Shown: one piece after another, positions 8,991 to 60,905 of the stretch | Numbering within the stretch: position 1 is the first letter of the stretch | Layout: every line of letters starts with the position of its first letter | Source of the DNA: Eledone cirrhosa | Taxonomy: Eukaryota | Length of the DNA stretch: 64,000 bases | Direction: 5' to 3' | Assembly: GCA_964016885.1 (NCBI GenBank) | Contig: OZ024742.1 | Coordinates: forward strand, 127,968,001 to 128,032,000 | Program-made: the position numbers and the translations under genes | Notes under the pieces: model-generated | Databases searched by the model: none | Seen by the model: the letters and a program-made list of their open reading frames with translations, nothing else | Told to the model about the DNA's origin: nothing

Positions 8991-9000
8991 TATATAATTC

Positions 9001-16900: not shown

Positions 16901-17330
16901 GGGTGCGTAAGCTGATATTATTGTGGTAATTGTTTTATTCCGGACTAGTCTGAGTTTAATGATTCTTGCATTTACCCTGTACACTGAGATTACTTTATCT
17001 ACCCACTTGTCAGCTAGTAGTATACCTACACCACCCATCCCATCATCATTTCCCACCCAGAAAAATTTGTAGCACTGACTTTTTCCTACAAGGACTCTAG
17101 CAGACTCTCCTCTCCATCTAGTCTCTTGCACACAACATACATCAATTTCTTTTCGCTCCAGCATCTCTACGATTTCTCCTGCTCTTCCTTTCATTGTGCT
17201 TACATTGATGGTACCAACTCTGAGTTTTGGGCATTTGTCAACATTCGTAGAGAAGGGTCGATTTTTGCAGGGTGTGTGTATGTGCTTCCTGTCTCTGAAT
17301 TGGGGCTTCACATGGGTGCTTGGTAGCTCG
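13999..17330 (-). mobile_element. RTE-clade LINE, near full-length with APE domain (family B), decayed
   Basis: APE 16319-17311 (VQETRW, SAYAPQ, GDFNGHV, QIDFIL). RT pieces 14411-16125. (TGA)n tail at about 14000. Short internal deletions; the 5' UTR may extend to about 17800. Confidence 0.92.
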
Positions 17331-17464
17331 TGGATTCATATTCATTTTCATCTATTAATTCAGAGTTGCTCCATTTATTCTCAGCTCATCCATACATAAC
17401 GGTAGGAAAATTCAGGGCTAGAAGAACAGTGGTAATAATGGCAGGGTGTGTTGGGCTGGAGGGA

Positions 17465-17745: not shown

Positions 17746-18378
17746 GGAAAAGAAAATGAAGGTAAAAATAAATGTGTTGTGGAAGCTAGTGAAATGATAA
17801 ATATAGCAATAATTGTGTGAGTGGAACATTGTTTGCATATATGCGGCAGTACTACAAATACACATACATCCTAGATCACAACCAAAAAGAGGACAATCAA
17901 CTAAATGGCAATGATTCACTTACCAACATACTTCAACCACTAGTTTACATATGTACAGTTTGCTCTCTTTGTCAGCTGACACTTCTCTTCCTATCATCCT
18001 TACTGTATCTCACCTACTAGACATCCAACTCATCCACCACCACCATTGAACACTCTGTTTAATAATTTCTCCCCAGAGATGTGTGCAATCCTTTACAATT
18101 CTCTCTATGGTTATGCTTTTACTGCAGACATTGATCTTAAAGCTTAACATAAATTGTACCAACCCTTGCTAACAGAGAAAACAGATGTAAACCAATGATA
18201 ATGATGAATTTCAACAGTCTGAAAGGCCCTAAAAAATTCGTCATTTGATCTATTTTTCCTGATTCATCATCATCATGACTAATTTATGTAAAAATAAAAA
18301 AAAATTTGATTCCTTTGAACACAGTATTTAAAAAATGTTTTGATGTAAAATGTTTCTGAAAAATAAAAAAATGATTAC

Positions 18379-18471
18379 CTTTTCTTTCCAGTTAAATTGT
18401 TGTTCGAGTTTTCCACTTAATTTATTTATAGTTTCTTCTGCCTGCACTGTTGTAACCTTTTGGTTTGCAAT
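18379..18471 (-). CDS. FKBP15: FKBP15-like exon I (IANQKVTTVQAEETINKLSGKLEQQFNWKEK)
   Basis: Strong polypyrimidine+tag acceptor, AAG|gtaatc donor, 93 bp, phase 0/0. Confidence 0.8.
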
Positions 18472-18550
18472 CTAAAAGAGAAAAAGAAATTGTTAATGAA
18501 ATGAAATATAACTGTGTATTGTGAAGAGGTCAGTAGCTCTGACTAAGTAC

Positions 18551-21500
18551 TGACTTGGTCTGTGTCTAGCTGTCAAACCCTTGCGAGCAGGGAAAACATG
18601 ACTTGGTCTGTGACTAGCTGTCAAACCCTTGTTAGCAGGGAAAACATGACTTGGTCTGTGACTAGCTGTCAAACCCGTGTTAGCAGGGAAAACATGACTT
18701 GGTCAGTATCTAGCTGTCAAACCCTTGTTAGCAGGGAAAACATGAATTGGTCAGTGTCTAGCTGTCAAACCCTTGTTAGCAGGGAAAATATGACTTGGTC
18801 TGTGACTAGCTATCAAACCCTTGCTAGCAGGGAAAACATAACTTGGTCTGTGTCTAGCTGTCAAACCCTTGTTAGCAGGGAAAACATGACTTGGTCAGTG
18901 TCTAGCTGTCAAACCCTTGTTAGCAGGGAAAACATGACTTGTTCTGTGACTAGCTGTCAAACCCTTGCTAGCTGGGAAAACATGACTTGTTCTGTGACTA
19001 GCTGTCAATCCCTTGCTAGCTGGGAAAACATGACTTGGTCTGTGACTAGCTGTCAAACCCTTGCTAGCTGGGAAAACATGACTTGGTCTGTGACTAGCTG
19101 TCAAACCCTTGCTAGCTGGGAAAACATGACTTGGTCTGTGACTAGCTGTCAAAGCCTTACTAGCAGGGAAAACATGACTTGGTCTGTGTTTAGCTGTCAA
19201 AGCCTTACTAGGAGGAAAAACATGACTTGGTCTGTGACTAGCTGTCAAAGCCTTACTAGCAGGGAAAACATGACCTGGTCTGTGTCTATCTGTCAAACCC
19301 TTGCTAGCTGGGAAAACATGACTTGTTCTGTGACTAGCTGTCAAACCCTTGCTAGCTGGGAAAACATGACTTGGTCTGTGACTAGCTGTCAAACCCTTAC
19401 TAGCAGGGAAAACATGACTTGGTCTGTGTTTAGCTGTCAAACCCTTCCTAGCAGGGAAAACATGACTTGGTCTGGGTCTAGCTGTCAAAGCCTTACTAGC
19501 AGGGGAAACATGACTTGGTCTGTGTCTAGTTGTCAAAGCCTTACTAGCAGAGAAACATGACTTGGTCTGTGTCTAGCTGTCAAACCCTTGCTAGCATGGA
19601 AAATATGACCTGGTCTGTGTCTAGCTGTCAAACCCTTGCTAGCTGGGAAAACATGACTTGGTCTGTGATTAGCTGTCAAACCCTTGTTAGGAGGGAAAAC
19701 ATGACTTGGTCTGTGTTTAGCTGTCAAACCCTTACTAACAGGGAAAACATGACTTGGTTTGTGTCTAGCTGTCAAACCCTTGCTAGCCGGGGAGACATGA
19801 CTTGGTTTGTGTCTAGCTGTCAAACCCTTGCTAGCTGGGAAAACATGACTTGGTCTGTGATTAGCTGTCAAAGCCTTGTTAGCAGGGAAAACATGACTTG
19901 GTCTGTGTCTAACTGTCAAAGCCTTACTAGGAGGGAAAACATGACCTGGTCTGTGTCTAGCTGTCAAACCCTTGCTAGCTGGGAAAACATGACCTGGTGT
20001 GTGTCTAGCTGTCAAACCCTTGCTAGCAGGGAAAACATGACTTGGTCTGTGTTTAGCTGTCAAACCCTTACTAACAGGGAAAACATGACTTGGTTTGTGT
20101 CTAGCTGTCAAACCCTTGCTAGCCGGGGAGACATGACTTGGTTTGTGTCTAGCTGTCAAACCCTTGCTAGCTGGGAAAACATGACTTGGTCTGTGATTAG
20201 CTGTCAAAGCCTTGTTAGCAGAGAAAACATGACTTGGTCTGTGTCTAACTGTCAAAGCCTTACTAGGAGGAAAAACATGACCTGGTCTGTGTCTAGCTGT
20301 CAAACCCTTGCTAGCTGGCAAAACATGACCTGGTATGTGTCTAGCTGTCAAACCCTTGCTAGCAGGGAAAACATGACTTGGTCTGTGTCTAGCTGTCAAA
20401 GCCTTACTAGGAGGGAAAACATGACTTGGTCTGTGTCTAGCTGTCAAAGCCTTACTAGCAGGGAAAACATGACTTGTTAGCAAACCCTTGTTAGCAGGGA
20501 AAACATGATTAGTTGTCAAACCCTTGTTAGGAGGGAAAACATGACCTGGTCTGTGCTTAGCTGCCAAACCTTTGCTAGCTGGGAAAACATGACTTGGTCT
20601 GTGACTAGCTGTCAAACCCTTGTTAGCAGGGAAAACATAACTTGGTCTATGACTAGCTGTCAAACCCTTGCTAGGAGGGAAAACATGACCTGGTCTGTGT
20701 TTAGCTGTCAAACCCTTGCTAGCTGGGAAAACATGACTTGGTCTGTGACTAGCTGTCAAACCCTTGTTAGCAGGGAAAACATGACCGGGTCTGTGTTTAG
20801 CTGTCAAACGCTTGCTAGCAGGGAAAACATGACCTGGTCTGTGTTTAGCTGTCAAACCCATGTTAGCAGGGAAAACATGACTTGGTCTGTGACTAGCTGT
20901 CAAACCCTTGCTAGCAGGGAAAACATGACTTGTTCTGTGTCTAGCTGTCAAACCCATGTGAGCAGGGAAAACATGACTTGGTCTGTGTCTAGCTGTCAAA
21001 CCCTTGTAAGCAGGAAAAACATGACTTGTTCTGTGTCTAGCTGTCAAACCCATGTGAGCAGGGAAAACATGACTTGGTCTGTGTCTAGCTGTCAAACCCA
21101 TGTGAGCAGGGAAAACATGACTTGGTCTGTGTCTAGCTGTCAAACCCTTGTAAGCAGGAAAAACATGACTTGATCTGTGACTAGCTGTCAAACTCTTGCA
21201 AGCTGGGAAAACATGACTTGGGCTGTGTCTAGCTGTCAAACCCTTGTTGGCAGGGAAAACATGACTTGGTCTGTGACTAGCTGTCAAACCCTTGTTGGCA
21301 GGGAAAACATGACTTGGTCTGTGACTAGCTGTCAAACCCTTGCTAGCTGGGAAAACATGACTTGATCTGTGACTAACTGTTAAACCCTTGTTAGCAGGGA
21401 GAACATGACTTGGTCTGTGTCGAGCTGTCAAACCCTTGCTAGCAGGGAAAACATGACTTGGTCTCTGACTAGCTGTCAAACAATTGCTAGCAGGGAAAAC

Positions 21501-24500
21501 ATGACTTGGTCTGTGTTTAGCTGTCAAACCCTTGCTAGCAGGGAAAACATGACCTGGTCTGTGTCTAGCTGTCAGGCCCTTGCTAGCAGGGAAAACATGA
21601 CTTGGTCTGTGACTAGCTTTCAAACCCTTGCTAGCTGGGAAAACATGACTTGGTCTGTGTCTAGCTGTCAAACCCTCGTTAGCAGAGAAAACATGACCTG
21701 GTCTGTGTTTAGCTGTCAAACCCTTGTTAGCAGGGAAAACATGACTTGGTCTGTGACTAGCTGTCAAACCCTCGTTAGCAGAGAAAACATGACTTGGTCT
21801 GTGTCTAGCTGTCAAACCCTTGTTAGCAGGGAAAACATGACTTGGTCTGTGACTAGCTGTCAAACCCTTGCTAGCTGGAAAAACATGACTTGGTCTGTGA
21901 TTAGCTGTCAAACCCTTGTTAGGAGGGAAAACATGACTTGGTCTGTGTTTAGCTGTCAAACCCTTACTAACAGGGAAAACATGACTTGGTTTGTGTCTAG
22001 CTGTCAAACCCTTGCTAGCCGGGGAGACATGACTTGGTTTGTGTCTAGCTGTCAAACCCTTGCTAGCTGGGAAAACATGACTTGGTCTGTGATTAGCTGT
22101 CAAAGCCTTGTTAGCAGGGAAAACATGACTTGGTCTGTGTCTAACTGTCAAAGCCTTACTAGGAGGGAAAACATGACCTGGTCTGTGTCTAGCTGTCAAA
22201 CCCTTGCTAGCTGGGAAAACATGACCTGGTGTGTGTCTAGCTGTCAAACCCTTGCTAGCAGGGAAAACATGACTTGGTCTGTGTTTAGCTGTCAAACCCT
22301 TACTAACAGGGAAAACATGACTTGGTTTGTGTCTAGCTGTCAAACCCTTGCTAGCTGGGAAAACATGACTTGGTCTGTGATTAGCTGTCAAAGCCTTGTT
22401 AGCAGGGAAAACATGACTTGGTCTGTGTCTAACTGTCAAAGCCTTACCAGGAGGGAAAACATGACCTGGTCTGTGTCTAGCTGTCAAACCCTTGCTAGCT
22501 GGCAAAACATGACCTGGTATGTGTCTAGCTGTCAAACCCTTGCTAGCAGGGAAAACATGACTTGGTCTGTGTCTAGCTGTCAAAGCCTTACTAGGAGGGA
22601 AAACATGACTTGGTCTGTGTCTAGCTGTCAAAGCCTTACTAGCAGGGAAAACATGACTTGTTAGCAAACCCTTGTTAGCAGGGAAAACATGATTAGTTGT
22701 CAAACCCTTGTTAGGAGGGAAAACATGACCTGGTCTGTGCTTAGCTGCCAAACCTTTGCTAGCTGGGAAAACATGACTTGGTCTGTGACTAGCTGTCAAA
22801 CCCTTGTTAGCAGGGAAAACATAACTTGGTCTATGACTAGCTGTCAAACCCTTGCTAGGAGGGAAAACATGACCTGGTCTGTGTTTAGCTGTCAAACCCT
22901 TGCTAGCTGGGAAAACATGACTTGGTCTGTGACTAGCTGTCAAACCCTTGTTAGCAGGGAAAACATGACCTGGTCTGTGTTTAGCTGTCAAACGCTTGCT
23001 AGCAGGGAAAACATGACCTGGTCTGTGTTTAGCTGTCAAACCCATGTTAGCAGGGAAAACATGACTTGGTCTGTGACTAGCTGTCAAACCCTTGCTAGCA
23101 GGGAAAACATGACTTGTTCTGTGTCTAGCTGTCAAACCCATGTGAGCAGGGAAAACATGACTTGGTCTGTGTCTAGCTGTCAAACCCTTGTAAGCAGGAA
23201 AAACATGACTTGTTCTGTGTCTAGCTGTCAAACCCATGTGAGCAGGGAAAACATGACTTGGTCTGTGTCTAGCTGTCAAACCCTTGACAGCAGGAAAAAC
23301 ATGACTTGGTCTGTGTCTAGCTGTCAAACCCTTGTAAGCAGGAAAAACATGACTTGATCTGTGACTAGCTGTCAAACTCTTGCAAGCTGGGAAAACATGA
23401 CTTGGGCTGTGTCTAGCTGTCAAACCCTTGTTGGCAGGGAAAACATGACTTGGTCTGTGACTAGCTGTCAAACCCTTGTTGGCAGGGAAAACATGACTTG
23501 GTCTGTGACTAGCTGTCAAACCCTTGCTAGCTGGGAAAACATGACTTGATCTGTGACTAACTGTTAAACCCTTGTTAGCAGGGAGAACATGACTTGGTCT
23601 GTGTCGAGCTGTCAAACCCTTGCTAGCAGGGAAAACATGACTTGGTCTCTGACTAGCTGTCAAACACTTGCTAGCAGGGAAAACATGACTTGGTCTGTGT
23701 TTAGCTGTCAAACCCTTGCTAGCAGGGAAAACATGACCTGGTCTGTGACTAGCTTTCAAACCCTTGCTAGCTGGGAAAACATGACTTGGTCTGTGTCTAG
23801 CTGTCAAACCCTCGTTAGCAGAGAAAACATGACCTGGTCTGTGTTTAGCTGTCAAACCCTTGTTAGCAGGGAAAACATGACTTGGTCTGTGACTAGCTGT
23901 CAAACCCTCGTTAGCAGAGAAAACATGACTTGGTCTGTGTCTAGCTGTCAAACCCTTGTTAGCAGGGAAAACATGACTTGGTCTGTGACTAGCTGTCAAA
24001 CCCTTGCTAGCTGGAAAAACATGACTTGGTCTGTGATTAGCTGTCAAACCCTTGTTAGGAGGGAAAACATGACTTGGTCTGTGTTTAGCTGTCAAACCCT
24101 TACTAACAGGGAAAACATGACTTGGTTTGTGTCTAGCTGTCAAACCCTTGCTAGCCGGGGAGACATGACTTGGTTTGTGTCTAGCTGTCAAACCCTTGCT
24201 AGCTGGGAAAACATGACTTGGTCTGTGATTAGCTGTCAAAGCCTTGTTAGCAGGGAAAACATGACTTGGTCTGTGTCTAACTGTCAAAGCCTTACTAGGA
24301 GGGAAAACATGACCTGGTCTGTGTCTAGTTGTCAAACCCTTGCTAGCTGGGAAAACATGACCTGGTGTGTGTCTAGCTGTCAAACCCTTGCTAGCAGGGA
24401 AAACATGACTTGGTCTGTGTTTAGCTGTCAAACCCTTACTAACAGGGAAAACATGACTTGGTTTGTGTCTAGCTGTCAAACCCTTGCTAGCTGGGAAAAC

Positions 24501-27500
24501 ATGACTTGGTCTGTGATTAGCTGTCAAAGCCTTGTTAGCAGGGAAAACATGACTTGGTCTGTGTCTAACTGTCAAAGCCTTACCAGGAGGGAAAACATGA
24601 CCTGGTCTGTGTCTAGCTGTCAAACCCTTGCTAGCTGGCAAAACATGACCTGGTATGTGTCTAGCTGTCAAACCCTTGCTAGCAGGGAAAACATGACTTG
24701 GTCTGTGTCTAGCTGTCAAAGCCTTACTAGGAGGGAAAACATGACTTGGTCTGTGTCTAGCTGTCAAAGCCTTACTAGCAGGGAAAACATGACTTGTTAG
24801 CAAACCCTTGTTAGCAGGGAAAACATGATTAGTTGTCAAACCCTTGTTAGGAGGGAAAACATGACCTGGTCTGTGCTTAGCTGCCAAACCTTTGCTAGCT
24901 GGGAAAACATGACTTGGTCTGTGACTAGCTGTCAAACCCTTGTTAGCAGGGAAAACATAACTTGGTCTATGACTAGCTGTCAAACCCTTGCTAGGAGGGA
25001 AAACATGACCTGGTCTGTGTTTAGCTGTCAAACCCTTGCTAGCTGGGAAAACATGACTTGGTCTGTGACTAGCTGTCAAACCCTTGTTAGCAGGGAAAAC
25101 ATGACCTGGTCTGTGTTTAGCTGTCAAACGCTTGCTAGCAGGGAAAACATGACCTGGTCTGTGTTTAGCTGTCAAACCCATGTTAGCAGGGAAAACATGA
25201 CTTGGTCTGTGACTAGCTGTCAAACCCTTGCTAGCAGGGAAAACATGACTTGTTCTGTGTCTAGCTGTCAAACCCATGTGAGCAGGGAAAACATGACTTG
25301 GTCTGTGTCTAGCTGTCAAACCCTTGTAAGCAGGAAAAACATGACTTGTTCTGTGTCTAGCTGTCAAACCCATGTGAGCAGGGAAAACATGACTTGGTTT
25401 GTGTCTAGCTGTCAAACCCTTGACAGCAGGAAACACATGACTTGGTCTGTGTCTAGCTGTCAAACCCTTGTAAGCAGGAAAAACATGACTTGATCTGTGA
25501 CTAGCTGTCAAACTCTTGCAAGCTGGGAAAACATGACTTGGGCTGTGTCTAGCTGTCAAACCCTTGTTGGCAGGGAAAACATGACTTGGTCTGTGACTAG
25601 CTGTCAAACCCTTGTTGGCAGGGAAAACATGACTTGGTCTGTGACTAGCTGTCAAACCCTTGCTAGCTGGGAAAACATGACTTGATCTGTGACTAACTGT
25701 TAAACCCTTGTTAGCAGGGAGAACATGACTTGGTCTGTGTCGAGCTGTCAAACCCTTGCTAGCAGGGAAAACATGACTTGGTCTCTGACTAGCTGTCAAA
25801 CACTTGCTAGCAGGGAAAACATGACTTGGTCTGTGTTTAGCTGTCAAACCCTTGCTAGCAGGGAAAACATGACCTGGTCTGTGACTAGCTTTCAAACCCT
25901 TGCTAGCTGGGAAAACATGACTTGGTCTGTGTCTAGCTGTCAAACCCTCGTTAGCAGAGAAAACATGACCTGGTCTGTGTTTAGCTGTCAAACCCTTGTT
26001 AGCAGGGAAAACATGACCTGGTCTGTGACTAGCTGTCAAAGCCTTGTTAGCAGGGAAAACATGACTTGGTCTCTGACTAGCTGTCAAGCCCTTGCTCGCA
26101 GGGAAAACATGACCTGGTCTGTGTCTAGCTGTCAAACCCTTGCTAGCAGAGAAAACATGACTTGGTCTGTGTCTAGCTGTTAAACCCTTGCTAGCTGGGA
26201 AAACATGACTTGGTCTGTGACTAGCTGTCAAACCCTTGTTAGCAGGGAAAACATAACTTGGTCTATGACTAGCTGTCAAACCCTTGCTAGGAGGGAAAAC
26301 ATGACCTGGTCTGTGTTTAGCTGTCAAACCCTTGCTAGCTGGGAAAACATGACTTGGTCTGTGACTAGCTGTCAAACCCTTGTTAGCAGGGAAAACATGA
26401 CCTGGTCTGTGACTAGCTGTCAAACCCTTGCTAGCAGGGAAAACATGACTTGTTCTGTGTCTAGCTGTCAAACCCATGTGAGCAGGGAAAACATGACTTG
26501 GTCTGTGTCTAGCTGTCAAACCCTTGTAAGCAGGAAAAACATGACTTGTTCTGTGTCTAGCTGTCAAACCCATGTGAGCAGGGAAAACATGACTTGGTCT
26601 GTGTCTAGCTGTCAAACCCTTGACAGCAGGAAAAACATGACTTGTTCTGTGTCTAGCTGTCAAACCCATGTGAGCAGGGAAAACATGACTTGGTCTGTGT
26701 CTAGCTGTCAAACCCTTGTAAGCAGGAAAAACATGACTTGATCTGTGACTAGCTGTCAAACTCTTGCAAGCTGGGAAAACATGACTTGGGCTGTGTCTAG
26801 CTGTCAAACCCTTGTTGGCAGGGAAAACATGACCTGGTCTGTGTCTAGCTGTCAAACCCTTGCTAGCAGGGAAAACATGACCTGGTCTGTGTCTAGCTGT
26901 CAAACCCTTGCTAGCAGGGAAAACATGACTTGGTCTGTGACTAGCTGTCAAACCCTTGCTAGCTGGGAAATCATGACTTGGTCTGTGACTAGCTGTCAAA
27001 CCCTTGCTAGCACGGAAAACATAACTTGATCTGTGACTAGCTGTCAAACCCTTGTTAGCAGGGAAAACATGACTTGGCCTGTGACTAGCTGTCAAACCCT
27101 TGCTAGCAGGGAAAACATGACCTGGTCTGTGTCTAGCTGTCAAAGCGTTGTTAGCAGGGGAAACATGACCTGGTCTGTGTCTAGCTGTCAAACCCTTGTT
27201 AGCAGGGAAACCATGACCTGGTCTGTGTTTAGCTGTCAAGCCCTTGCTAGCAGGGAAAACATGACTTGGTCTGTGTCTAACTGTCAAAGCCTTACTAGGA
27301 GGGAAAACATGACCTGGTCTGTGTTTAGCTGTCAAACCCTTGCTAGCTGGGAAAACATGACTTGGTCTGTGACTAGCTGTCAAACCCTTGTTAGCAGGGA
27401 AAACATGACTAGCTGTCAAACCCTTGCTAGCTGGGAAAACATGACTTGGTCTGTGACTAACTGTTAAACCCTTGTTAGCAGGGAGAACATGACTTGGTCT

Positions 27501-30500
27501 GTGTCGAGCTGTCAAACCCTTGCTAGCAGGGAAAACATGACTTGGTCTGTGTCTAGCTGTCAAGCCCTTGCTTGCAGGGAAAACATAACCTGGTCTGTGT
27601 CTAGCTGTCAAACCCTTGCTAGCAGGGAAAACATGACTTGGTCTGTGACTAGCTGTCAAACCCTTGCTAGCTGGGAAAACATGACTTGGTCTGCGTCTAG
27701 CTGTCAAACCCTTGTTAGGAGGGAAAACATGACTTGGTCTGTGACTAGCTGTCAAACCCTTGTTAGCAGAGAAAACATGACTTGGTCTGTGTTTACCTGT
27801 CAAACCCTTGTTAGGAGGGAAAACATGACTTGGTCTGTGACTAGCTGTCAAACCCTTGCTAGCAGGGAAGTGTCTAGCTGTCAAACCCTTGCTAGCAGGG
27901 AAAACATGACTTGGTCTGTGTCTAGCTGTCAAAGCCTTACTAGGAGGGAAAACATGACTTGGTCTGTGTCTAGCTGTCAAAGCCTTACTAGCAGGGAAAA
28001 CATGACTTGTTAGCAAACCCTTGTTAGCAGGGAAAACATGATTAGTTGTCAAACCCTTGTTAGGAGGGAAAACATGACCTGGTCTGTGCTTAGCTGCCAA
28101 ACCTTTGCTAGCTGGGAAAACATGACTTGGTCTGTGACTAGCTGTCAAACCCTTGTTAGCAGGGAAAACATAACTTGGTCTATGACTAGCTGTCAAACCC
28201 TTGCTAGGAGGGAAAACATGACCTGGTCTGTGTTTAGCTGTCAAACCCTTGCTAGCTGGGAAAACATGACTTGGTCTGTGACTAGCTGTCAAACCCTTGT
28301 TAGCAGGGAAAACATGACCGGGTCTGTGTTTAGCTGTCAAACGCTTGCTAGCAGGGAAAACATGACCTGGTCTGTGTTTAGCTGTCAAACCCATGTTAGC
28401 AGGGAAAACATGACTTGGTCTGTGACTAGCTGTCAAACCCTTGCTAGCAGGGAAAACATGACTTGTTCTGTGTCTAGCTGTCAAACCCATGTGAGCAGGG
28501 AAAACATGACTTGGTCTGTGTCTAGCTGTCAAACCCTTGTAAGCAGGAAAAACATGACTTGTTCTGTGTCTAGCTGTCAAACCCATGTGAGCAGGGAAAA
28601 CATGACTTGGTCTGTGTCTAGCTGTCAAACCCATGTGAGCAGGGAAAACATGACTTGGTCTGTGTCTAGCTGTCAAACCCTTGTAAGCAGGAAAAACATG
28701 ACTTGATCTGTGACTAGCTGTCAAACTCTTGCAAGCTGGGAAAACATGACTTGGGCTGTGTCTAGCTGTCAAACCCTTGTTGGCAGGGAAAACATGACTT
28801 GGTCTGTGACTAGCTGTCAAACCCTTGTTGGCAGGGAAAACATGACTTGGTCTGTGACTAGCTGTCAAACCCTTGCTAGCTGGGAAAACATGACTTGATC
28901 TGTGACTAACTGTTAAACCCTTGTTAGCAGGGAGAACATGACTTGGTCTGTGTCGAGCTGTCAAACCCTTGCTAGCAGGGAAAACATGACTTGGTCTCTG
29001 ACTAGCTGTCAAACAATTGCTAGCAGGGAAAACATGACTTGGTCTGTGTTTAGCTGTCAAACCCTTGCTAGCAGGGAAAACATGACCTGGTCTGTGTCTA
29101 GCTGTCAGGCCCTTGCTAGCAGGGAAAACATGACTTGGTCTGTGACTAGCTTTCAAACCCTTGCTAGCTGGGAAAACATGACTTGGTCTGTGTCTAGCTG
29201 TCAAACCCTCGTTAGCAGAGAAAACATGACCTGGTCTGTGTTTAGCTGTCAAACCCTTGTTAGCAGGGAAAACATGACTTGGTCTGTGACTAGCTGTCAA
29301 ACCCTCGTTAGCAGAGAAAACATGACTTGGTCTGTGTCTAGCTGTCAAACCCTTGTTAGCAGGGAAAACATGACTTGGTCTGTGACTAGCTGTCAAACCC
29401 TTGCTAGCTGGAAAAACATGACTTGGTCTGTGATTAGCTGTCAAACCCTTGTTAGGAGGGAAAACATGACTTGGTCTGTGTTTAGCTGTCAAACCCTTAC
29501 TAACAGGGAAAACATGACTTGGTTTGTGTCTAGCTGTCAAACCCTTGCTAGCCGGGGAGACATGACTTGGTTTGTGTCTAGCTGTCAAACCCTTGCTAGC
29601 TGGGAAAACATGACTTGGTCTGTGATTAGCTGTCAAAGCCTTGTTAGCAGGGAAAACATGACTTGGTCTGTGTCTAACTGTCAAAGCCTTACTAGGAGGG
29701 AAAACATGACCTGGTCTGTGTCTAGCTGTCAAACCCTTGCTAGCTGGGAAAACATGACCTGGTGTGTGTCTAGCTGTCAAACCCTTGCTAGCAGGGAAAA
29801 CATGACTTGGTCTGTGTTTAGCTGTCAAACCCTTACTAACAGGGAAAACATGACTTGGTTTGTGTCTAGCTGTCAAACCCTTGCTAGCTGGGAAAACATG
29901 ACTTGGTCTGTGATTAGCTGTCAAAGCCTTGTTAGCAGGGAAAACATGACTTGGTCTGTGTCTAACTGTCAAAGCCTTACCAGGAGGGAAAACATGACCT
30001 GGTCTGTGTCTAGCTGTCAAACCCTTGCTAGCTGGCAAAACATGACCTGGTATGTGTCTAGCTGTCAAACCCTTGCTAGCAGGGAAAACATGACTTGGTC
30101 TGTGTCTAGCTGTCAAAGCCTTACTAGGAGGGAAAACATGACTTGGTCTGTGTCTAGCTGTCAAAGCCTTACTAGCAGGGAAAACATGACTTGTTAGCAA
30201 ACCCTTGTTAGCAGGGAAAACATGATTAGTTGTCAAACCCTTGTTAGGAGGGAAAACATGACCTGGTCTGTGCTTAGCTGCCAAACCTTTGCTAGCTGGG
30301 AAAACATGACTTGGTCTGTGACTAGCTGTCAAACCCTTGTTAGCAGGGAAAACATAACTTGGTCTATGACTAGCTGTCAAACCCTTGCTAGGAGGGAAAA
30401 CATGACCTGGTCTGTGTTTAGCTGTCAAACCCTTGCTAGCTGGGAAAACATGACTTGGTCTGTGACTAGCTGTCAAACCCTTGTTAGCAGGGAAAACATG

Positions 30501-33500
30501 ACCTGGTCTGTGTTTAGCTGTCAAACGCTTGCTAGCAGGGAAAACATGACCTGGTCTGTGTTTAGCTGTCAAACCCATGTTAGCAGGGAAAACATGACTT
30601 GGTCTGTGACTAGCTGTCAAACCCTTGCTAGCAGGGAAAACATGACTTGTTCTGTGTCTAGCTGTCAAACCCATGTGAGCAGGCAAAACATGACTTGGTC
30701 TGTGTCTAGCTGTCAAACCCTTGTAAGCAGGAAAAACATGACTTGTTCTGTGTCTAGCTGTCAAACCCATGTGAGCAGGGAAAACATGACTTGGTCTGTG
30801 TCTAGCTGTCAAACCCTTGACAGCAGGAAAAACATGACTTGGTCTGTGTCTAGCTGTCAAACCCTTGTAAGCAGGAAAAACATGACTTGATCTGTGACTA
30901 GCTGTCAAACTCTTGCAAGCTGGGAAAACATGACTTGGGCTGTGTCTAGCTGTCAAACCCTTGTTGGCAGGGAAAACATGACTTGGTCTGTGACTAGCTG
31001 TCAAACCCTTGTTGGCAGGGAAAACATGACTTGGTCTGTGACTAGCTGTCAAACCCTTGCTAGCTGGGAAAACATGACTTGATCTGTGACTAACTGTTAA
31101 ACCCTTGTTAGCAGGGAGAACATGACTTGGTCTGTGTCGAGCTGTCAAACCCTTGCTAGCAGGGAAAACATGACTTGGTCTCTGACTAGCTGTCAAACAC
31201 TTGCTAGCAGGGAAAACATGACTTGGTCTGTGTTTAGCTGTCAAACCCTTGCTAGCAGGGAAAACATGACCTGGTCTGTGACTAGCTTTCAAACCCTTGC
31301 TAGCTGGGAAAACATGACTTGGTCTGTGTCTAGCTGTCAAACCCTCGTTAGCAGAGAAAACATGACCTGGTCTGTGTTTAGCTGTCAAACCCTTGTTAGC
31401 AGGGAAAACATGACTTGGTCTGTGACTAGCTGTCAAACCCTCGTTAGCAGAGAAAACATGACTTGGTCTGTGTCTAGCTGTCAAACCCTTGTTAGCAGGG
31501 AAAACATGACTTGGTCTGTGACTAGCTGTCAAACCCTTGCTAGCTGGAAAAACATGACTTGGTCTGTGATTAGCTGTCAAACCCTTGTTAGGAGGGAAAA
31601 CATGACTTGGTCTGTGTTTAGCTGTCAAACCCTTACTAACAGGGAAAACATGACTTGGTTTGTGTCTAGCTGTCAAACCCTTGCTAGCCGGGGAGACATG
31701 ACTTGGTTTGTGTCTAGCTGTCAAACCCTTGCTAGCTGGGAAAACATGACTTGGTCTGTGATTAGCTGTCAAAGCCTTGTTAGCAGGGAAAACATGACTT
31801 GGTCTGTGTCTAACTGTCAAAGCCTTACTAGGAGGGAAAACATGACCTGGTCTGTGTCTAGTTGTCAAACCCTTGCTAGCTGGGAACACATGACCTGGTG
31901 TGTGTCTAGCTGTCAAACCCTTGCTAGCAGGGAAAACATGACTTGGTCTGTGTTTAGCTGTCAAACCCTTACTAACAGGGAAAACATGACTTGGTTTGTG
32001 TCTAGCTGTCAAACCCTTGCCAGCTGGGAAAACATGACTTGGTCTGTGATTAGCTGTCAAAGCCTTGTTAGCAGGGAAAACATGACTTGGTCTGTGTCTA
32101 ACTGTCAAAGCCTTACCAGGAGGGAAAACATGACCTGGTCTGTGTCTAGCTGTCAAACCCTTGCTAGCTGGCAAAACATGACCTGGTATGTGTCTAGCTG
32201 TCAAACCCTTGCTAGCAGGGAAAACATGACTTGGTCTGTGTCTAGCTGTCAAAGCCTTACTAGGAGGGAAAACATGACTTGGTCTGTGTCTAGCTGTCAA
32301 AGCCTTACTAGCAGGGAAAACATGACTTGTTAGCAAACCCTTGTTAGCAGGGAAAACATGATTAGTTGTCAAACCCTTGTTAGGAGGGAAAACATGACCT
32401 GGTCTGTGCTTAGCTGCCAAACCTTTGCTAGCTGGGAAAACATGACTTGGTCTGTGACTAGCTGTCAAACCCTTGTTAGCAGGGAAAACATAACTTGGTC
32501 TATGACTAGCTGTCAAACCCTTGCTAGGAGGGAAAACATGACCTGGTCTGTGTTTAGCTGTCAAACCCTTGCTAGCTGGGAAAACATGACTTGGTCTGTG
32601 ACTAGCTGTCAAACCCTTGTTAGCAGGGAAAACATGACCTGGTCTGTGTTTAGCTGTCAAACGCTTGCTAGCAGGGAAAACATGACCTGGTCTGTGTTTA
32701 GCTGTCAAACCCATGTTAGCAGGGAAAACATGACTTGGTCTGTGACTAGCTGTCAAACCCTTGCTAGCAGGGAAAACATGACTTGTTCTGTGTCTAGCTG
32801 TCAAACCCATGTGAGCAGGGAAAACATGACTTGGTCTGTGTCTAGCTGTCAAACACTTGTAAGCAGGAAAAACATGACTTGTTCTGTGTCTAGCTGTCAA
32901 ACCCATGTGAGCAGGGAAAACATGACTTGGTCTGTGTCTAGCTGTCAAACCCTTGACAGCAGGAAAAACATTACTTGGTCTGTGTCTAGCTGTCAAACCC
33001 TTGTAAGCAGGAAAAACATGACTTGATCTGTGACTAGCTGTCAAACTCTTGCAAGCTGGGAAAACATGACTTGGGCTGTGTCTAGCTGTCAAACCCTTGT
33101 TGGCAGGGAAAACATGACTTGGTCTGTGACTAGCTGTCAAACCCTTGTTGGCAGGGAAAACATGACTTGGTCTGTGACTAGCTGTCAAACCCTTGCTAGC
33201 TGGGAAAACATGACTTGATCTGTGACTAACTGTTAAACCCTTGTTAGCAGGGAGAACATGACTTGGTCTGTGTCGAGCTGTCAAACCCTTGCTAGCAGGG
33301 AAAACATGACTTGGTCTCTGACTAGCTGTCAAACACTTGCTAGCAGGGAAAACATGACTTGGTCTGTGTTTAGCTGTCAAACCCTTGCTAGCAGGGAAAA
33401 CATGACCTGGTCTGTGACTAGCTTTCAAACCCTTGCTAGCTGGGAAAACATGACTTGGTCTGTGTCTAGCTGTCAAACCCTCGTTAGCAGAGAAAACATG

Positions 33501-36500
33501 ACCTGGTCTGTGTTTAGCTGTCAAACCCTTGTTAGCAGGGAAAACATGACCTGGTCTGTGACTAGCTGTCAAAGCCTTGTTAGCAGGGAAAACATGACTT
33601 GGTCTCTGACTAGCTGTCAAGCCCTTGCTCGCAGGGAAAACATGACCTGGTCTGTGTCTAGCTGTCAAACCCTTGCTAGCAGAGAAAACATGACTTGGTC
33701 TGTGTCTAGCTGTTAAACCCTTGCTAGCTGGGAAAACATGACTTGGTCTGTGACTAGCTGTCAAACCCTTGTTAGCAGGGAAAACATAACTTGGTCTATG
33801 ACTAGCTGTCAAACCCTTGCTAGGAGGGAAAACATGACCTGGTCTGTGTTTAGCTGTCAAACCCTTGCTAGCTGGGAAAACATGACTTGGTCTGTGACTA
33901 GCTGTCAAACCCTTGTTAGCAGGGAAAACATGACCTGGTCTGTGACTAGCTGTCAAACCCTTGCTAGCAGGGAAAACATGACTTGTTCTGTGTCTAGCTG
34001 TCAAACCCTCGTTAGCAGAGAAAACATGACCTGGTCTGTGTTTAGCTGTCAAACCCTTGTTAGCAGGGAAAACATGACTTGGTCTGTGACTAGCTGTCAA
34101 ACCCTCGTTAGCAGAGAAAACATGACTTGGTCTGTGTCTAGCTGTCAAACCCTTGTTAGCAGGAAAAACATGACTTGTTCTGTGTCTAGCTGTCAAACCC
34201 ATGTGAGCAGGGAAAACATGACTTGGTCTGTGTCTAGCTGTCAAACCCTTGTAAGCAGGAAAAACATGACTTGATCTGTGACTAGCTGTCAAACTCTTGC
34301 AAGCTGGGAAAACATGACTTGGGCTGTGTCTAGCTGTCAAACCCTTGTTGGCAGGGAAAACATGACCTGGTCTGTGTCTAGCTGTCAAACCCTTGCTAGC
34401 AGGGAAAACATGACCTGGTCTGTGTCTAGCTGTCAAACCCTTGCTAGCAGGGAAAACATGACTTGGTCTGTGACTAGCTGTCAAACCCTTGCTAGCTGGG
34501 AAATCATGACTTGGTCTGTGACTAGCTGTCAAACCCTTGCTAGCACGGAAAACATAACTTGATCTGTGACTAGCTGTCAAACCCTTGTTAGCAGGGAAAA
34601 CATGACTTGGCCTGTGACTAGCTGTCAAACCCTTGCTAGCAGGGAAAACATGACCTGGTCTGTGTCTAGCTGTCAAAGCGTTGTTAGCAGGGGAAACATG
34701 ACCTGGTCTGTGTCTAGCTGTCAAACCCTTGTTAGCAGGGAAACCATGACCTGGTCTGTGTTTAACTGTCAAGCCCTTGCTAGCAGGGAAAACATGACTT
34801 GGTCTGTGTCTAACTGTCAAAGCCTTACTAGGAGGGAAAACATGACCTGGTCTGTGTTTAGCTGTCAAACCCTTGCTAGCTGGGAAAACATGACTTGGTC
34901 TGTGACTAGCTGTCAAACCCTTGTTAGCAGGGAAAACATGACTAGCTGTCAAACCCTTGCTAGCTGGGAAAACATGACTTGGTCTGTGACTAACTGTTAA
35001 ACCCTTGTTAGCAGGGAGAACATGACTTGGTCTGTGTCGAGCTGTCAAACCCTTGCTAGCAGGGAAAACATGACTTGGTCTGTGTCTAGCTGTCAAGCCC
35101 TTGCTTGCAGGGAAAACATAACCTGGTCTGTGTCTAGCTGTCAAACCCTTGCTAGCAGGGAAAACATGACTTGGTCTGTGACTAGCTGTCAAACCCTTGC
35201 TAGCTGGGAAAACATGACTTGGTCTGCGTCTAGCTGTCAAACCCTTGTTAGGAGGGAAAACATGACTTGGTCTGTGACTAGCTGTCAAACCCTTGTTAGC
35301 AGAGAAAACATGACTTGGTCTGTGTTTACCTGTCAAACCCTTGTTAGGAGGGAAAACATGACTTGGTCTGTGACTAGCTGTCAAACCCTTGCTAGCAGGG
35401 AAGTGTCTAGCTGTCAAACCCTTGCTAGCAGGGAAAACATGACTTGGTCTGTGTCCAGCTGTCAAATCCTCGTTAGCAGAGAAAACATGACTTGGTCTGT
35501 GTCTAACTGTCAAACCCTTGTAAGCAGGAAAAACATGACTTGATCTGTGACTAGCTGTCAAACTCTTGCAAGCTGGGAAAACATGACTTGGGCTGTGTCT
35601 AGCTGTCAAACCCTTGTTGGCAGGGAAAACATGACCTGGTCTGTGTCTAGCTGTCAAACCCTTGCTAGCAGGGAAAACATGACCTGGTCTGTGTCTAGCT
35701 GTCAAACCCTTGCTAGCAGGGAAAACATGACTTGGTCTGTGACTAGCTGTCAAACCCTTGCTAGCTGGGAAATCATGACTTGGTCTGTGACTAGCTGTCA
35801 AACCCTTGCTAGCAGGGAAAACATAACTTGATCTGTGACTAGCTGTCAAACCCTTGTTAGCAGGGAAAACATGACTTGGCCTGTGACTAGCTGTCAAACC
35901 CTTGCTAGCAGGGAAAACATGGCCTGGTCTGTGTCTAGCTGTCAAAGCGTTGTTAGCAGGGGAAACATGACCTGGTCTGTGTCTAGCTGTCAAACCCTTG
36001 TTAGCAGGGAAACCATGACCTGGTCTGTGTTTAGCTGTCAAGCCCTTGCTAGCAGGGAAAACATGACTTGGTCTGTGTCTAACTGTCAAAGCCTTACTAG
36101 GAGGGAAAACATGACTTGGTCTGTGTTTAGCTGTCAAACCCTTGCTAGCTGGGAAAACATGACTTGGTCTGTGACTAGCTGTCAAACCCTTGTTAGCAGG
36201 GAAAACATGACTAGCTGTCAAACCCTTGCTAGCTGGGAAAACATGACTTGGTCTGTGACTAACTGTTAAACCCTTGTTAGCAGGGAGAACATGACTTGGT
36301 CTGTGTCGAGCTGTCAAACCCTTGCTAGCAGGGAAAACATGACTTGGTCTGTGTCTAGCTGTCAAGCCCTTGCTCGCAGGGAAAACATAACCTGGTCTGT
36401 GTCTAGCTGTCAAACCCTTGCTAGCAGGGAAAACATGACTTGGTCTGTGACTAGCTGTCAAACCCTTGCTAGCTGGGAAAACATGACTTGGTCTGCGTCT

Positions 36501-36937
36501 AGCTGTCAAACCCTTGTTAGGAGGGAAAACATGACTTGGTCTGTGACTAGCTGTCAAACCCTTGTTAGCAGAGAAAACATGACTTGGTCTGTGTTTACCT
36601 GTCAAACCCTTGTTAGGAGGGAAAACATGACTTAGTCTGTGACTAGCTGTCAAACCCTTGCTAGCAGGGAAGTGTCTAGCTGTCAAACCCTTGCTAGCAG
36701 GGAAAACATGACTTGGTCTGTGTCCAGCTGTCAAACCCTCGTTAGCAGAGAAAACATGACTTGGTCTGTGTCTAACTGTCAAACCCTTGTTAGCAGGAAA
36801 AACATGACTTAGTCTGTGAAACCCTTGTTTGTAGGGAAAACATGACTTGGTCTGTGTCTAGCTGTTAAACCCTTGCTAGCTGGGAAAACATGACCTGATC
36901 TGTGTCTAGCTGTCAAACACTTGCCAGCTGGGAAAAC
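18551..36937. repeat. 48-bp minisatellite array, about 380 units, with higher-order repeats
   Basis: Consensus TGACTTGGTCTGTGTCTAGCTGTCAAACCCTTGCTAGCAGGGAAAACA. Variant units recur at offsets 2184, 2136, 7533 and 1269 bp, visible in ORF-track starts such as 20505/22689/24825/28038/30222/32358 and 35022/36291. Confidence 0.98.
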
Positions 36938-37254
36938 AGACATGGTGATGATGATAGATCCTCAGCACACGACTCTATTTGTCTTAGTTAACCCAGACAA
37001 AAAGTAACATCATTCTTATTTCACCACAAATAGTTAGTGTTACAAACTGAAAATAATGATATGTGGTTTTTATTTTAATAGTCTTGCTATTATTCATTGT
37101 TAAACTACAATAATCTCTAATTTATTTTTATAAGAATATTTAGCCATGCTTTAAAACTGCTTTTTATGAACAAGTCAGCTTTATGATAAAGATCCTCCCC
37201 ACTTCACATAATACAGCAGAGAGGGCTCTTCAGTCAAATCAACGACTGACAACT

Positions 37255-37770
37255 TCCTTGGTGAAGGCGCCATGATAATACGCACCTAGTATATTCTGTA
37301 AAGTGGTTAGCATTTTGGAAGGACATCCAGCTGTAGAAACCATGTCAAAAGGGCTGAGCAACCTTTTCAGTCACATCATGGACATGGCAACATCTCTAGT
37401 GCTGGCACTATGAAAGAATGCACCCAGTGCATTCTGTAAAGTGGTTGGCATTATAGACGACATCCAGCTGTAGAAAACATGCTAAAGAAAGGGCTGAGTT
37501 GGCTCTTCAGTTGTCTTGAGGACACAACAACCTCCCCAGTGCTGGTGCCACGATAAAATACAGCTAGTACACACTGTAAAGAGGTTAGTGATAAGAAGGG
37601 CATCCAGCTGAAGAAACCATACCAAAACCTGAATGTATGTAAGCAAGATGTGAGCCCTAACCTGTCTGGGAGAACAGTAGCTCAGACTAAGTACTGACTT
37701 TATCTTTGATGACTCATCCAACTCATACCAGCATGGCAAAAGGGATGTCAAATGATGATAGTAATGATGT
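37255..37770 (+). mobile_element. SINE-like element with internal tandem modules and an RTE-type 3' tail
   Basis: Three modules CCATGATAAAA...GTAAAGTGGTTGGCATT...CATCCAGCTGTAGAAACCAT, ending CATACCAGCATGG...AAATGATGAT. Relatives at about 2825-3018 and 4225-4550 (+) and 46160-46460 and 50560-50875 (-). Confidence 0.65.
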
Positions 37771-37850
37771 TATGTAATTTTTCCCTACAAGATAACAAAA
37801 AATTAGCAGTCTGAGTTTAGATACTATATTATTGATGAAGATTTATGCTA

Positions 37851-40330
37851 TACTAGCAGTGGTACCCGGCGTTGCACGGGATAAGGTATTTTGGAACGCG
37901 GGCCGCCAACAGACCTAATCGTGGAAAAACTGCATGCCTGGACAATATGTAAAGAAAATAAACCGAATACTCTGATGGCTGGATAATCTTTAAGATTTTC
38001 CTCGATGAAGCAGGAAAAATGCAGGTTTTCACATAGGGGATCAAGAAAATGAATTTTTTCTTATGTGCATAATATGCCTTTAAATTTCGGGAAAATCGGC
38101 TAGACGTAACGCTTTCAAAAAGCCATAAGAAGCTGAAAAAATCAAGTTTTTCACCTAATGCGGGCCCTAGGCCATAAGAAAGTTGGATTTTCTTTGCTTA
38201 CAGTATGAAGAAGAGACTGACTAATACATAGTTACAATTTCAAGGAAATCGGTCAGATGTAACGCCTCAAAAAACCCCTAAAAATCTTTAAAAACGCAGT
38301 TTTTCACCTAATGCGGGCCCTAGGAGATAAAAAAAAGTTCAATTTTTTTATGTGCATAACACTCTCTGAAACATAAGTAATACACATGTAAAGTTTGAAA
38401 AAAATCGGTTGGGTATTTCTCGAGTTTTAGGGATTCAAACACACAGACATCCTCAGGGAAGTGACGTAATGCAGACAGCCAAACATACAGACATATATTA
38501 TAAGGGTGCGATGTTATATGTATGTATCTATCTAAAAAGAGAAAGACTAAGAATTATAGAGCGACATCGCTAAATCGCCTAATGCGGTCTCTAGGGCATT
38601 GAAAATTTGAATTTTTTTTTGCTCAGAACACTCCCTGAAATATAAGTATTACATGTGTAAAGTTTGAAAACAGTCGGTTTGGTGCTTCTCTACAATACTA
38701 AGCGGTAAAATAGTAGCTTTTGTTCTGGTAAAGGCACATAAGTAAACAAACTGAAGCTATTACAGTGATGTTTTTCTTTACCAGCTTTAATTTTTAGTGT
38801 TGTGTGAACTATATAACCTGCAAACCTGATTTTTGAATCGCAGCAGGGTCGACTTTATTTCACTCGCTCCACTAAAAGTTGGATTTTCTTTGCTCACGGT
38901 ATGAAGAAGAGACTGACTAATACATAGTTACCGGCTTTCATTTTTAGTGTTGTGTGAAATATATAACCACCTTAGCTAAGCTTAGTATTGCTGACGTAAT
39001 GCAGACAGTCAGACATACAGACAGATAATATAAGGGCGCGACGTTATATGTATGTATCTATCTAAAAAGAGAAAGACTAAGAATTATAGAGCGAGATCGC
39101 TAAATCGCCTAATGCGGTCCCTAGGGCATTGGAAATTTGAAATTTCTTTTGCTCAGAACACTCCCTGAAACATAAGTATTACATGTGTATAGTTTGAAAA
39201 CAGTCGGTTGGGTGGTTCTCGAGTTTTAGGGATTCGAACTCACACACACACAGACAGACATCCTCAGTTTTATATATATATACTAGCAGAATGGCCTGGC
39301 GTTGCTCGGGATTTGCTCTAGGGTTCTTATATATTTGGTATATATTGATCCTTATCGAGCCTCATGAAATAAATACGTTTGTTTATATTTTGTTATTGTG
39401 TATGCAAAAATATCTGTGCACGAATATATAATTATATATATATTAAAATAACAGATTAAAGTTTAAGCAAAGAATCGCTGCTTTCACCCTTAATGGGATC
39501 TTCTGAAACTAAAAAAATCAATCTGTGAAGTAAATTGCAGAAGTAAATATTTCGAAAAACGTTACACACTATATATATATACACACTATATATATACATA
39601 TATATACACACACACACATATAGCATCATAATGACGTAATGCAGACAGCCAGCCAGACATACAGACATATTATAAGGGCGCAACGTTATATCTATGTATC
39701 TATCTAAAAAGAAAGACTAAGAATTATAGAGAGAGATTGCTAAATCGCCTAATGCGGTCCCTAGGGCATTGAAAATTTGAAATATTTTTGCTCAAAACAC
39801 TCACACGACCATAAGTATTACATGTGTAAAGTTTGAAAAAAGTCGGTTGGGTGGTTCTCGAGTTTTAGGGAGTCAGACAGACAGACAGACATTCTCTGTT
39901 TTAGATATATAGATAGCAGAAAACCGATTGTTTTCAAACTTTAGACATGTAATACTTATGGTTCTGTGAGTGTTTTGAGCAAAAATTATTTCAAACTTTC
40001 AATGCCCTAGGGACTGCATTAGGCGATTTAGCGTTCTCTCTATATAATTCTTAGTCTTTCTTTTTAGATAGATACATAGATATAACGTTGCGTCCTTATA
40101 ATATCTGTCTGTATGTCTGGCTGTCTGCATTACGTCATCAGTGTGTGTGTGTATATATATATGTATCGTAATGCAGACAGCAAGACATAGCTTTCCTTCC
40201 CCTCTTCCAGCGTCTCTCTCTCTCTCTCTCCCGCTATCCCCCTCTTGTAGTATGTCTCTTTCTTTCACTCTCACTCTACACGTCAGACAGACAGACAGAG
40301 AAATTGCTGGTTATATATTATAAGGAGATT
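37851..40330. mobile_element. Cluster of non-autonomous Helitron-like (Lep1/HINE-type) repeats
   Basis: Two starts of the form TACTAGCAG...CCGGCGTTGC(A/T)CGGGA (37851, 39281). Ends have (ACAG)n followed by TTTTA(T/G)ATATATA. A module of about 220 bp is repeated at about 38460, 38990 and 39630, and inverted at 39922-40139. No coding capacity. Confidence 0.6.
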
Positions 40331-40568
40331 ATTGATGACATCATTATCAACCTTGATTTCTTTCTTCGCTCAATTTACAGAGGAAGCTAATATGTCCTTA
40401 CTACTTTTTGACTCTTGAAGGTGAAGTTTTTAAAATATTGAAAAACAAATTATTGTAAAGCATTTAGTCCAACACTGTAGACTGTTTTTGCCAACTGTGA
40501 TCTCTTAACAATATTATCATAAAAAAAAGAAACAATAACACAAATAAAAGCAAAATCTTTATACTAGC

Positions 40569-60846: not shown

Positions 60847-60905
60847 AATCACACCTAGCACGCACGAACATTAGGAAAACTAGGGAAGGTTTCGAAGCAA
60901 TTAAA

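What the first reader, a model, noticed from the sequence alone, without database searches (positions are those of the whole stretch)
18525..36955. 18-kb minisatellite apparently born inside a retroposon 3' end, with both halves of the parent still flanking it
Seen: the left flank CAGTAGCTCTGACTAAGTACTGACTT and the right flank GGAAAACAGACATGGTGATGATGAT correspond to the two sides of an unamplified relative at about 37675-37770 (CAGTAGCTCAGACTAAGTACTGACTTTATC...CATACCAGCATGGCAAAAGGGATGTCAAATGATGAT). Another relative lies at about 46165-46245 on the minus strand. The unit contains the near-palindrome CCCTTGCTAGCAGGG, equivalent to the CCATGC(T/A)AGCATGG hairpin ending the RTE copies here, and one unit near 19590 keeps GCTAGCATGGAAAA. 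Known: LINE 3' stem-loops are RT recognition signals. Inference: about 380 tandem copies of a derived recognition hairpin, generated by slippage or repeated template jumping.
Basis: partly seen in the sequence, partly recalled or inferred. Interest (0 to 1): 0.7.

Follow-up and report, generated by a model that had tools for sequence, protein, structure and literature searches.

The report
Retrotransposon-born minisatellite inflating an octopus intron
A 48-base piece from the tail end of a LINE-type retrotransposon remnant is repeated about 388 times inside an intron of an octopod FKBP15 gene, most likely grown by ordinary nested DNA duplications, which makes it a clear, well-preserved example of a known process rather than a new one.

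Summary
18551-36938 is 388 head-to-tail units (365 of 48 bp). Left flank, one unit and right flank align colinearly with two dispersed relatives and with a profile of 15 retroposon tails built without array sequence (23.3 bits; best of 1000 shuffles 5.5). The array fills 18.4 of 22.1 kb of an intron of an octopod FKBP15 gene and starts 80 bp from the next exon. The proposed mechanism needs correcting. Growth was by nested block duplications (336, about 2,140-2,230, 1,269 and 7,533 bp), which points to DNA-level recombination or slippage, not repeated reverse-transcriptase jumping. The hairpin variant also occurs in two dispersed copies, and only 147 of 388 units keep it intact. A 5,774-codon stop-free frame runs through the array on the host strand. 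It fits neutral drift (P about 0.3 for no stops), has no usable in-phase donor and no protein relatives were found. SINE-derived arrays of hundreds of units, some with both parent ends, are published for squamates (PMC10702118). Verdict: new member of a known kind.

The parts
18551..36938 (+). Minisatellite array, 388 units, 48-bp consensus, 105 unit types
18525..18550 (+). Unamplified 5' remnant of the parent retroposon tail
36939..36955 (+). Unamplified 3' remnant of the parent: end of the outer-stem arm and (GAT)n tail
18551..19605 (+). Left edge, 22 units not part of any copied block; holds three units with a minus-frame stop and a 1-base deletion unit (19511)
19702..20373 (+). 7-unit (336 bp) block duplicated in tandem, 4 mismatches
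19654..26013 (+). Three copies of a roughly 2.1-2.2 kb block (lags 2232/2184 and 2136; starts near 19654, 21886, 24022)
20374..35439 (+). Two tandem copies of a 7,533-bp block; 24 differences in 20337-27922, 16 of them in one 149-bp patch
34219..36804 (+). Tandem duplication at lag 1,269 bp (9 mismatches in 1,317 bp)
19536..36857 (-). 5,774-codon stop-free frame (16-residue repeat); most likely a by-product
18379..18471 (-). FKBP15 exon downstream of the array (31 codons); its acceptor and pyrimidine tract lie at 18472-18490
40569..40721 (-). FKBP15 exon upstream of the array (51 codons), GC donor
18472..40568 (-). Host intron, 22,097 bp, of which 18,388 are array
37216..37770 (+). Unamplified relative: about 2.4 copies of a 140-bp domain, then the same tail
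46150..46463 (-). Second unamplified relative
18157..18208 (+). Tail fragment carrying the same CCCTTG hairpin variant as the array, on the other side of the exon
13998..17335 (-). Decayed autonomous LINE (endonuclease, RT, PHD finger), likely RTE clade, ending in the same tail hairpin; a second copy lies at about 8999-11880

Best explanation
This is an intronic minisatellite whose 48-bp unit is a slice of the 3' tail of a LINE-type (likely RTE) retrotransposon remnant, likely seeded by one short slippage duplication and likely expanded by nested DNA-level block duplications with no function of its own. Steps: (1) a short, 5'-truncated tail of about 90 bp lay antisense in an FKBP15 intron just upstream of the branch-point region (position shown; insertion history inferred). 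(2) A first duplication joined ...AAAACA to TGACTT...; the parent has an imperfect AC.GAC.T repeat 47 bp apart at these two points, so a slip with one extra base gives the 48-bp unit (sequence shown; event inferred; could have been RT or DNA polymerase). (3) Monomers multiplied and diverged to about 7% from consensus (shown). (4) Blocks of 7 units, about 45 units, 27 units and 7.5 kb were then duplicated in tandem, with patch-like exchanges between blocks (structure shown; unequal crossover or gene conversion inferred). (5) The array is spliced out with the intron and drifts (inferred).
For: Colinear alignment of flank, unit and flank to two relatives and to a 15-tail profile without array sequence. 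Nested lags of 336, 2136/2184/2232, 1269 and 7533 bp with 0.1-1.2% divergence, against 11% between unit types. Identical neighbours in 4 of 350 pairs; 351 of 388 units have an identical copy elsewhere. A 4-unit patch in the second 7.5-kb copy matches a distant part of the array instead of its partner. Substitutions fall evenly on the three codon positions (25/24/23) and hit the stem freely. The flanking exons are joined directly in 7 of 7 full-length Octopus FKBP15 proteins examined. The model of short flanking repeats seeding a duplication that then expands is described in PMC6947457 and PMC3389668 (passages).
Against: No empty or one-unit allele was seen; the parent is inferred from relatives only 56-60% identical to the unit. 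The microhomology is imperfect and gives 47, not 48, without an extra base. All indel types amplified in the interior keep frame (-12, -12, -12, -15) and the two frameshifts sit at the edges. There is a slight synonymous excess in the minus frame (19 against 15.4, P 0.07). The 7,533-bp doubling could be an assembly or haplotype duplication. The Octopus species compared may lack the array.
Confidence: 0.8

Rival explanations
1. The array was written by the LINE reverse transcriptase jumping back repeatedly over the tail hairpin during insertion.
For: The unit covers the hairpin next to the priming tail, and each junction re-forms the outer stem in the predicted RNA fold. This family carries other internal duplications (48-49 bp and 140 bp). 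Template slippage at LINE 3' repeats is noted in PMC3747384 (passage).
Against: One reaction would give near-identical neighbours. Observed: 4.8 differences between neighbours on average, 105 types and kilobase nested blocks. No target-site duplication. It can explain at most the first copy or few.
Confidence: 0.04
2. The array has been recruited as coding sequence: the 5,774-codon minus-strand frame is a giant alternative exon of FKBP15 or an independent repeat protein.
For: No stop in 17.3 kb on the host strand; unit is 16 codons; all interior indel types are in frame; stops and frameshifts only at the edges; synonymous excess P 0.07.
Against: Only 4 of 144 single changes make a stop in this frame, all A/T transversions; neutral reshuffling leaves it open in 28-32% of trials. 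97% of shuffled 48-mers have some open frame. The host intron is phase 0, but the best phase-0 donor in the frame scores 2.1 against 9.3-12.2 for 6 true donors (crude matrix). The first Met is at residue 886. No protein hit among 8,000 scored candidates of 275-875 aa, no Pfam match, atlas recognition 772 and best score 0.88.
Confidence: 0.06
3. A real but shorter array (about 11 kb) was lengthened by the assembler, which placed two haplotypes of the 7.5-kb block in tandem.
For: The two copies are 99.7% identical, with a 2,814-bp exact run; the array is about as long as a typical accurate long read (general knowledge).
Against: Nested duplications of equal youth exist at other scales (0.1-0.2% at 2.1 kb), and the two copies differ by a coherent 4-unit patch. 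This would change the size, not the origin.
Confidence: 0.1

Closest known systems
SINE-derived satellites (sSat1-3) of squamate reptiles (PMC10702118; background, results and discussion read)
   Same: Tandem array of a sub-portion of a retroposon; hundreds of units per locus (320, about 950, over 1,200); unit similarity about 89-94%; terminal monomers run on into the parent; a minor class keeps both parent ends; some units include the LINE-derived region; alternating sub-variants.
   Different: Here the unit is shorter (48 against about 70-290 nt) and is almost only the terminal hairpin; the parent looks like an RTE 3' UTR fragment, not a tRNA-headed SINE; it sits in a gene intron in a mollusc; a four-level block hierarchy is resolved. 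Multi-locus spread and subtelomeric bias could not be tested.
TE-derived human minisatellites (PMC3389668, passages: 23% of minisatellites/satellites derive from TEs) and the Alu-, B1- and MaLR-derived minisatellites listed in PMC6947457 (passages)
   Same: Birth inside a TE copy, short imperfect repeats at the unit ends, local expansion afterwards.
   Different: This array is several times longer than the 'up to 100 units' given there for minisatellites and has kilobase higher-order repeats.
3' stem-loop of stringent-type LINEs (UnaL2, ZfL2-1/2; PMC4176376, passages)
   Same: A two-stem hairpin just before a short-repeat tail, shared by autonomous copies and shorter relatives.
   Different: Binding was shown for L2-clade proteins; for this octopod element it is only predicted. 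In the array the hairpin is not conserved and lies antisense to the host transcript.

Membership tests
TE-derived minisatellite / sSat-type array | Head-to-tail array of a 10-100 bp unit | tested here: met
   388 units, 48 bp
TE-derived minisatellite / sSat-type array | Unit homologous to part of a dispersed element | tested here: met
   23 of 42 and 21 of 42 ungapped, P 5e-5 and 4e-4; 207 array hits to the tail profile
TE-derived minisatellite / sSat-type array | End monomers continue colinearly into the parent | tested here: met
   Both sides
TE-derived minisatellite / sSat-type array | Units closer to each other than to dispersed copies | tested here: met
   88.7% among 97 types against 56-60% to the two relatives
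TE-derived minisatellite / sSat-type array | Length polymorphism; further loci in the genome | not testable with these tools
   No eukaryotic genome or read collection available
SINE-derived (strict sense) | Parent has a tRNA/Pol III head | tested here: inconclusive
   No tRNA gene or Rfam match in the window; the relatives share a 130-140 bp domain with 50556-50919, which follows an ORF2 remnant at 51090-51339, favouring a LINE 3' UTR
RTE-clade LINE tail | Same tail as autonomous elements with AP-endonuclease and RT of RTE type | tested here: inconclusive
   Endonuclease and RT domains; named hits are 'craniofacial development protein 2-like', whose link to RTE/BovB is recalled; no RT tree was built
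RT-generated 3' tandem repeat (slippage during insertion) | Near-identical neighbouring units made in one event | tested here: not met
   4 of 350 neighbours identical; nested kb blocks
RT-generated 3' tandem repeat (slippage during insertion) | Target-site duplication around the insertion | tested here: not met
   Longest shared word 6 bases; an old one could have decayed
Functional LINE 3' recognition stem-loop | Stem kept by covariation among dispersed copies | tested here: inconclusive
   17 tails: 75% of cells paired against 30-43% when slid; covariation score reached by 14 of 500 shuffles, other measures by 26-80 of 500
Functional LINE 3' recognition stem-loop | Stem kept within the array | tested here: not met
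   147 of 388 intact; 17 of 19 stem changes break pairs; unit fold z 0.46 as RNA, hairpin not predicted as DNA
Functional LINE 3' recognition stem-loop | Bound by the element's ORF2 protein | not testable with these tools
   Needs a binding or retrotransposition assay
Coding repeat exon | Long open frame on the gene's strand | tested here: met
   5,774 codons
Coding repeat exon | Splice sites in phase with flanking exons | tested here: not met
   No phase-0 donor near true scores; phase-0 acceptors at most 4.4 against 3.9-14.5 (matrix from 8 acceptors and 6 donors only)
Coding repeat exon | Purifying selection on the peptide | tested here: inconclusive
   P 0.07 synonymous excess, P 0.28-0.32 no stop
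Coding repeat exon | Homologous proteins or isoforms | tested here: not met
   (limited length range; other species)

The most novel reading that the evidence does not exclude
A LINE's reverse-transcriptase recognition hairpin, read antisense, was amplified into a 5,774-codon frame that is now spliced or translated as a giant 16-residue repeat product of the octopod FKBP15 locus: a de novo repeat protein made from a retrotransposon tail, its frame guarded by selection during amplification.
Probability: 0.06. Interest if true: 0.8.

Novelty: new member of a known kind. Interest (0 to 1): 0.3.

Why it matters
It is a readable case history of satellite birth. Both parent ends, the first junction, the diverged monomers and four levels of block duplication are all visible in one locus, so the steps from a transposon fragment to a higher-order array can be ordered. 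It shows tandem amplification of a roughly 90-bp retroposon scrap lengthening an intron sixfold (3.7 to 22.1 kb) right next to a splice acceptor, one route to large cephalopod introns. One search for cephalopod satellites and one for RTE 3' UTR satellites listed no such case, so it may be unreported for this group. It also warns annotators that a 17-kb open frame can arise by chance in such arrays. The process itself is established.

Tried and rejected
Giant coding exon: tested by neutral nulls, splice scoring, protein, Pfam and atlas searches; not supported, kept as a low-probability rival. Cryptic acceptor array: the minus-strand unit has a pyrimidine run before TAG, but acceptor-like sites are less dense in the array (42 in 18.4 kb) than in neighbouring intronic DNA (46 in 9.2 kb, a count that includes the true acceptor). 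DNA hairpin as driver: the local hairpin is not predicted in either strand as DNA. Known RNA family or tRNA head: none. Target-site duplication: none. Host identification by word search with one exon and by atlas failed; the profile-free full scan found it. Bacterial, phage and plasmid collections were not searched, as they do not bear on an animal intron. Other arrays in this genome and the orthologous intron stayed unchecked. Supplements of the papers were not opened; those of PMC10702118 hold the figures of both-end loci.

Full report
Observation. The array is real. Tandem Repeats Finder reports period 48 from 18551 to 36946. Decomposition gives 388 segments (365 of 48 bp, 18 of 36, 3 of 45, one of 47, one of 38), 105 distinct types and 93.6% mean identity to the consensus. 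The 97 distinct full-length types are 88.7% identical to each other and 0.070 JC from the consensus.

Parent. The left flank matches 37675-37700 at 25 of 26 bases and the minus-strand copy at 46.2 kb. In the register this fixes, the unit matches those relatives without gaps at 23 of 42 and 21 of 42 non-anchor positions, against 10.5 for shuffles. A profile built from 15 tails outside the array hits the first unit with its flank (E 0.014), the last unit with its tail (E 0.0014) and 207 places in the array, each weakly (2.3-16.2 bits). A collapsed one-unit version scores 23.3 bits against at most 5.5 for 1000 shuffles. The surviving halves are small, about 26 and 17 bp, and no target-site duplication is visible.

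What the parent was. The same tail ends decayed autonomous LINEs in the window that carry endonuclease, RT and a PHD finger. Named relatives of the endonuclease are 'craniofacial development protein 2-like' from Octopus; that this name marks RTE/BovB-type endonucleases is recalled, and no tree was built. The two closest relatives share a 130-140 bp domain with 50556-50919, which lies downstream of an ORF2 remnant. No tRNA gene or Rfam family was found. The parent is thus best read as a truncated 3' UTR of an older RTE-type subfamily or its non-autonomous derivative (inference).

Host. An exon at 1585-1692 found a 1,165-residue protein at 86% identity, named FK506-binding protein 15 of Octopus sinensis with Pfam FKBP15, FKBP_C and WH1 domains. 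Ten window exons map along it and an eleventh, at 18379-18471, fills the gap. The five exons scored match at 52-86%, so the animal is likely an octopod other than the three Octopus species listed. The array lies antisense in the phase-0 intron 18472-40568, making up 18,388 of 22,097 bp and starting 80 bp from the exon. In 7 of 7 full-length Octopus isoforms the two flanking exons join directly.

How it grew. Self-comparison shows nested lags of 336, 2136, 2184, 2232, 1269 and 7533 bp. 292 of 388 units lie in copied blocks of three or more units; 351 have an identical twin elsewhere; only 4 of 350 neighbouring 48-bp pairs are identical. The two 7.5-kb copies differ at 24 sites in 7,586 bp, 16 of them in one 149-bp patch whose second-copy version matches units 12.3 kb away. 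The first 22 units and the last 3 are outside these blocks. This is the pattern expected from unequal exchange, conversion or long slippage on DNA, and not from one reverse-transcription event. On the scale in PMC13282606 (passages: JC 0.065 is about 18 million years in O. vulgaris) the monomers would be of the order of 20 million years old and the 7.5-kb doubling well under one million; the rate is borrowed from another species, so these are rough. The first junction joins AAAACA to TGACTT. The parent shows an imperfect AC.GAC.T repeat 47 bp apart there, so a slip with one extra base gives 48. It cannot be assigned to RT or to DNA polymerase.

The hairpin. Across 17 tails a two-stem fold pairs 75% of cells (inner stem 86%, outer 65%), against 30-43% when slid; covariation is modest (14 of 500 shuffles for the score, 26-80 of 500 for other measures). 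An array unit with its neighbour's start re-forms both stems in the RNA prediction but is no more stable than shuffles (z 0.46); as DNA the hairpin is not predicted. A two-unit stretch folds better as RNA (z -3.0) by pairing between units. Within the array 147 of 388 units keep all five inner pairs and 17 of 19 stem substitutions break pairing. The CCCTTG variant also occurs at 2392 and 18161. The CATGG unit at 19558 is 1 of 388. Stem-loop recognition is proven for L2-clade LINEs; for RTE the same paper cites shared tails only (PMC4176376, passages; PMC3747384, passages).

The long frame. The minus strand is stop-free for 5,774 codons, 19536-36857. For it: host strand, unit of 16 codons, interior indel types all in frame, frameshifts only at 19511 and 36805, synonymous excess at P 0.07. 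Against it: only 4 of 144 single changes create a stop; reshuffled mutations leave the frame open in 32% and 28% of trials; changes fall 25/24/23 on the codon positions; at least two of the -12 deletions sit at short internal repeats of the unit (seen); no good phase-0 donor exists and the first Met is residue 886; no relatives were found. By my arithmetic 3 of 5 or 4 of 6 indel events in frame has a chance of 0.2 or 0.1, so the joint neutral probability is a few percent, after the fact. I keep coding at about 6%.

Comparison. PMC10702118 (background, results, discussion read) describes SINE-derived satellites in squamates with up to about 1,000 units, 89-94% unit similarity, end monomers that continue into the SINE, and a minor class with both termini. 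PMC3389668 (passages) attributes 23% of human minisatellites and satellites to TEs. PMC6947457 (passages) gives the short-repeat seeding model. Searches listed no cephalopod or RTE-3'-UTR case (listings only; the library lacks most subscription journals). This locus is a member of that known kind, distinguished by its short hairpin-centred unit, intronic site beside an exon, resolved hierarchy and chance open frame.

Verdict. Observation confirmed; origin supported; RT-jumping and hairpin-function readings not supported. New member of a known kind, interest 0.3. Unchecked: true length, polymorphism, other loci, orthologous state, expression.

Noticed in passing
window 19536-36857, minus: 5,774-codon stop-free frame on the host strand; gene predictors may call it as a protein.
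   Followed up: yes
window 834-53584, minus: Eleven exons of an octopod FKBP15 gene; the exon ending at 40569 appears to use a GC donor (AAG|GCTAGT).
   Followed up: partly
window 18157-18208: A roughly 50-bp tail fragment matching 21 of the last 23 bases of the array unit, 370 bp away on the other side of the exon; same subfamily or local copying.
   Followed up: partly
window 14160-14265, 55294-55399, 55721-55832: The LINE 3' UTRs contain their own 48-49 bp tandem duplications, of a different sequence from the array unit.
   Followed up: no
window 37282-37620, 50556-50919: The older subfamily carries 2-3 tandem copies of a 130-140 bp domain, suggesting this 3' region duplicates readily.
   Followed up: partly
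window 9753-10781 and 14414-15055, minus: A PHD finger follows the RT domain in the LINE ORF2 copies.
   Followed up: no
window 20470-20505 and five copies: A 36-bp unit that reads as a double template switch inside the unit (forward 26, back 14 bases at CTTG and CA repeats); seen by eye.
   Followed up: partly
window about 4800-8700, minus: A second kind of decayed LINE with endonuclease- and RT-like frames; a CR1/L2-like look is recalled, not tested.
   Followed up: no
window about 37850-40200: A cluster of mutually similar non-LINE repeats in both orientations within the host intron, unclassified.
   Followed up: no
window about 59200-61400: AT-rich coding-like stretch that looks by eye like a Penelope-type element; not tested.
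   Followed up: no
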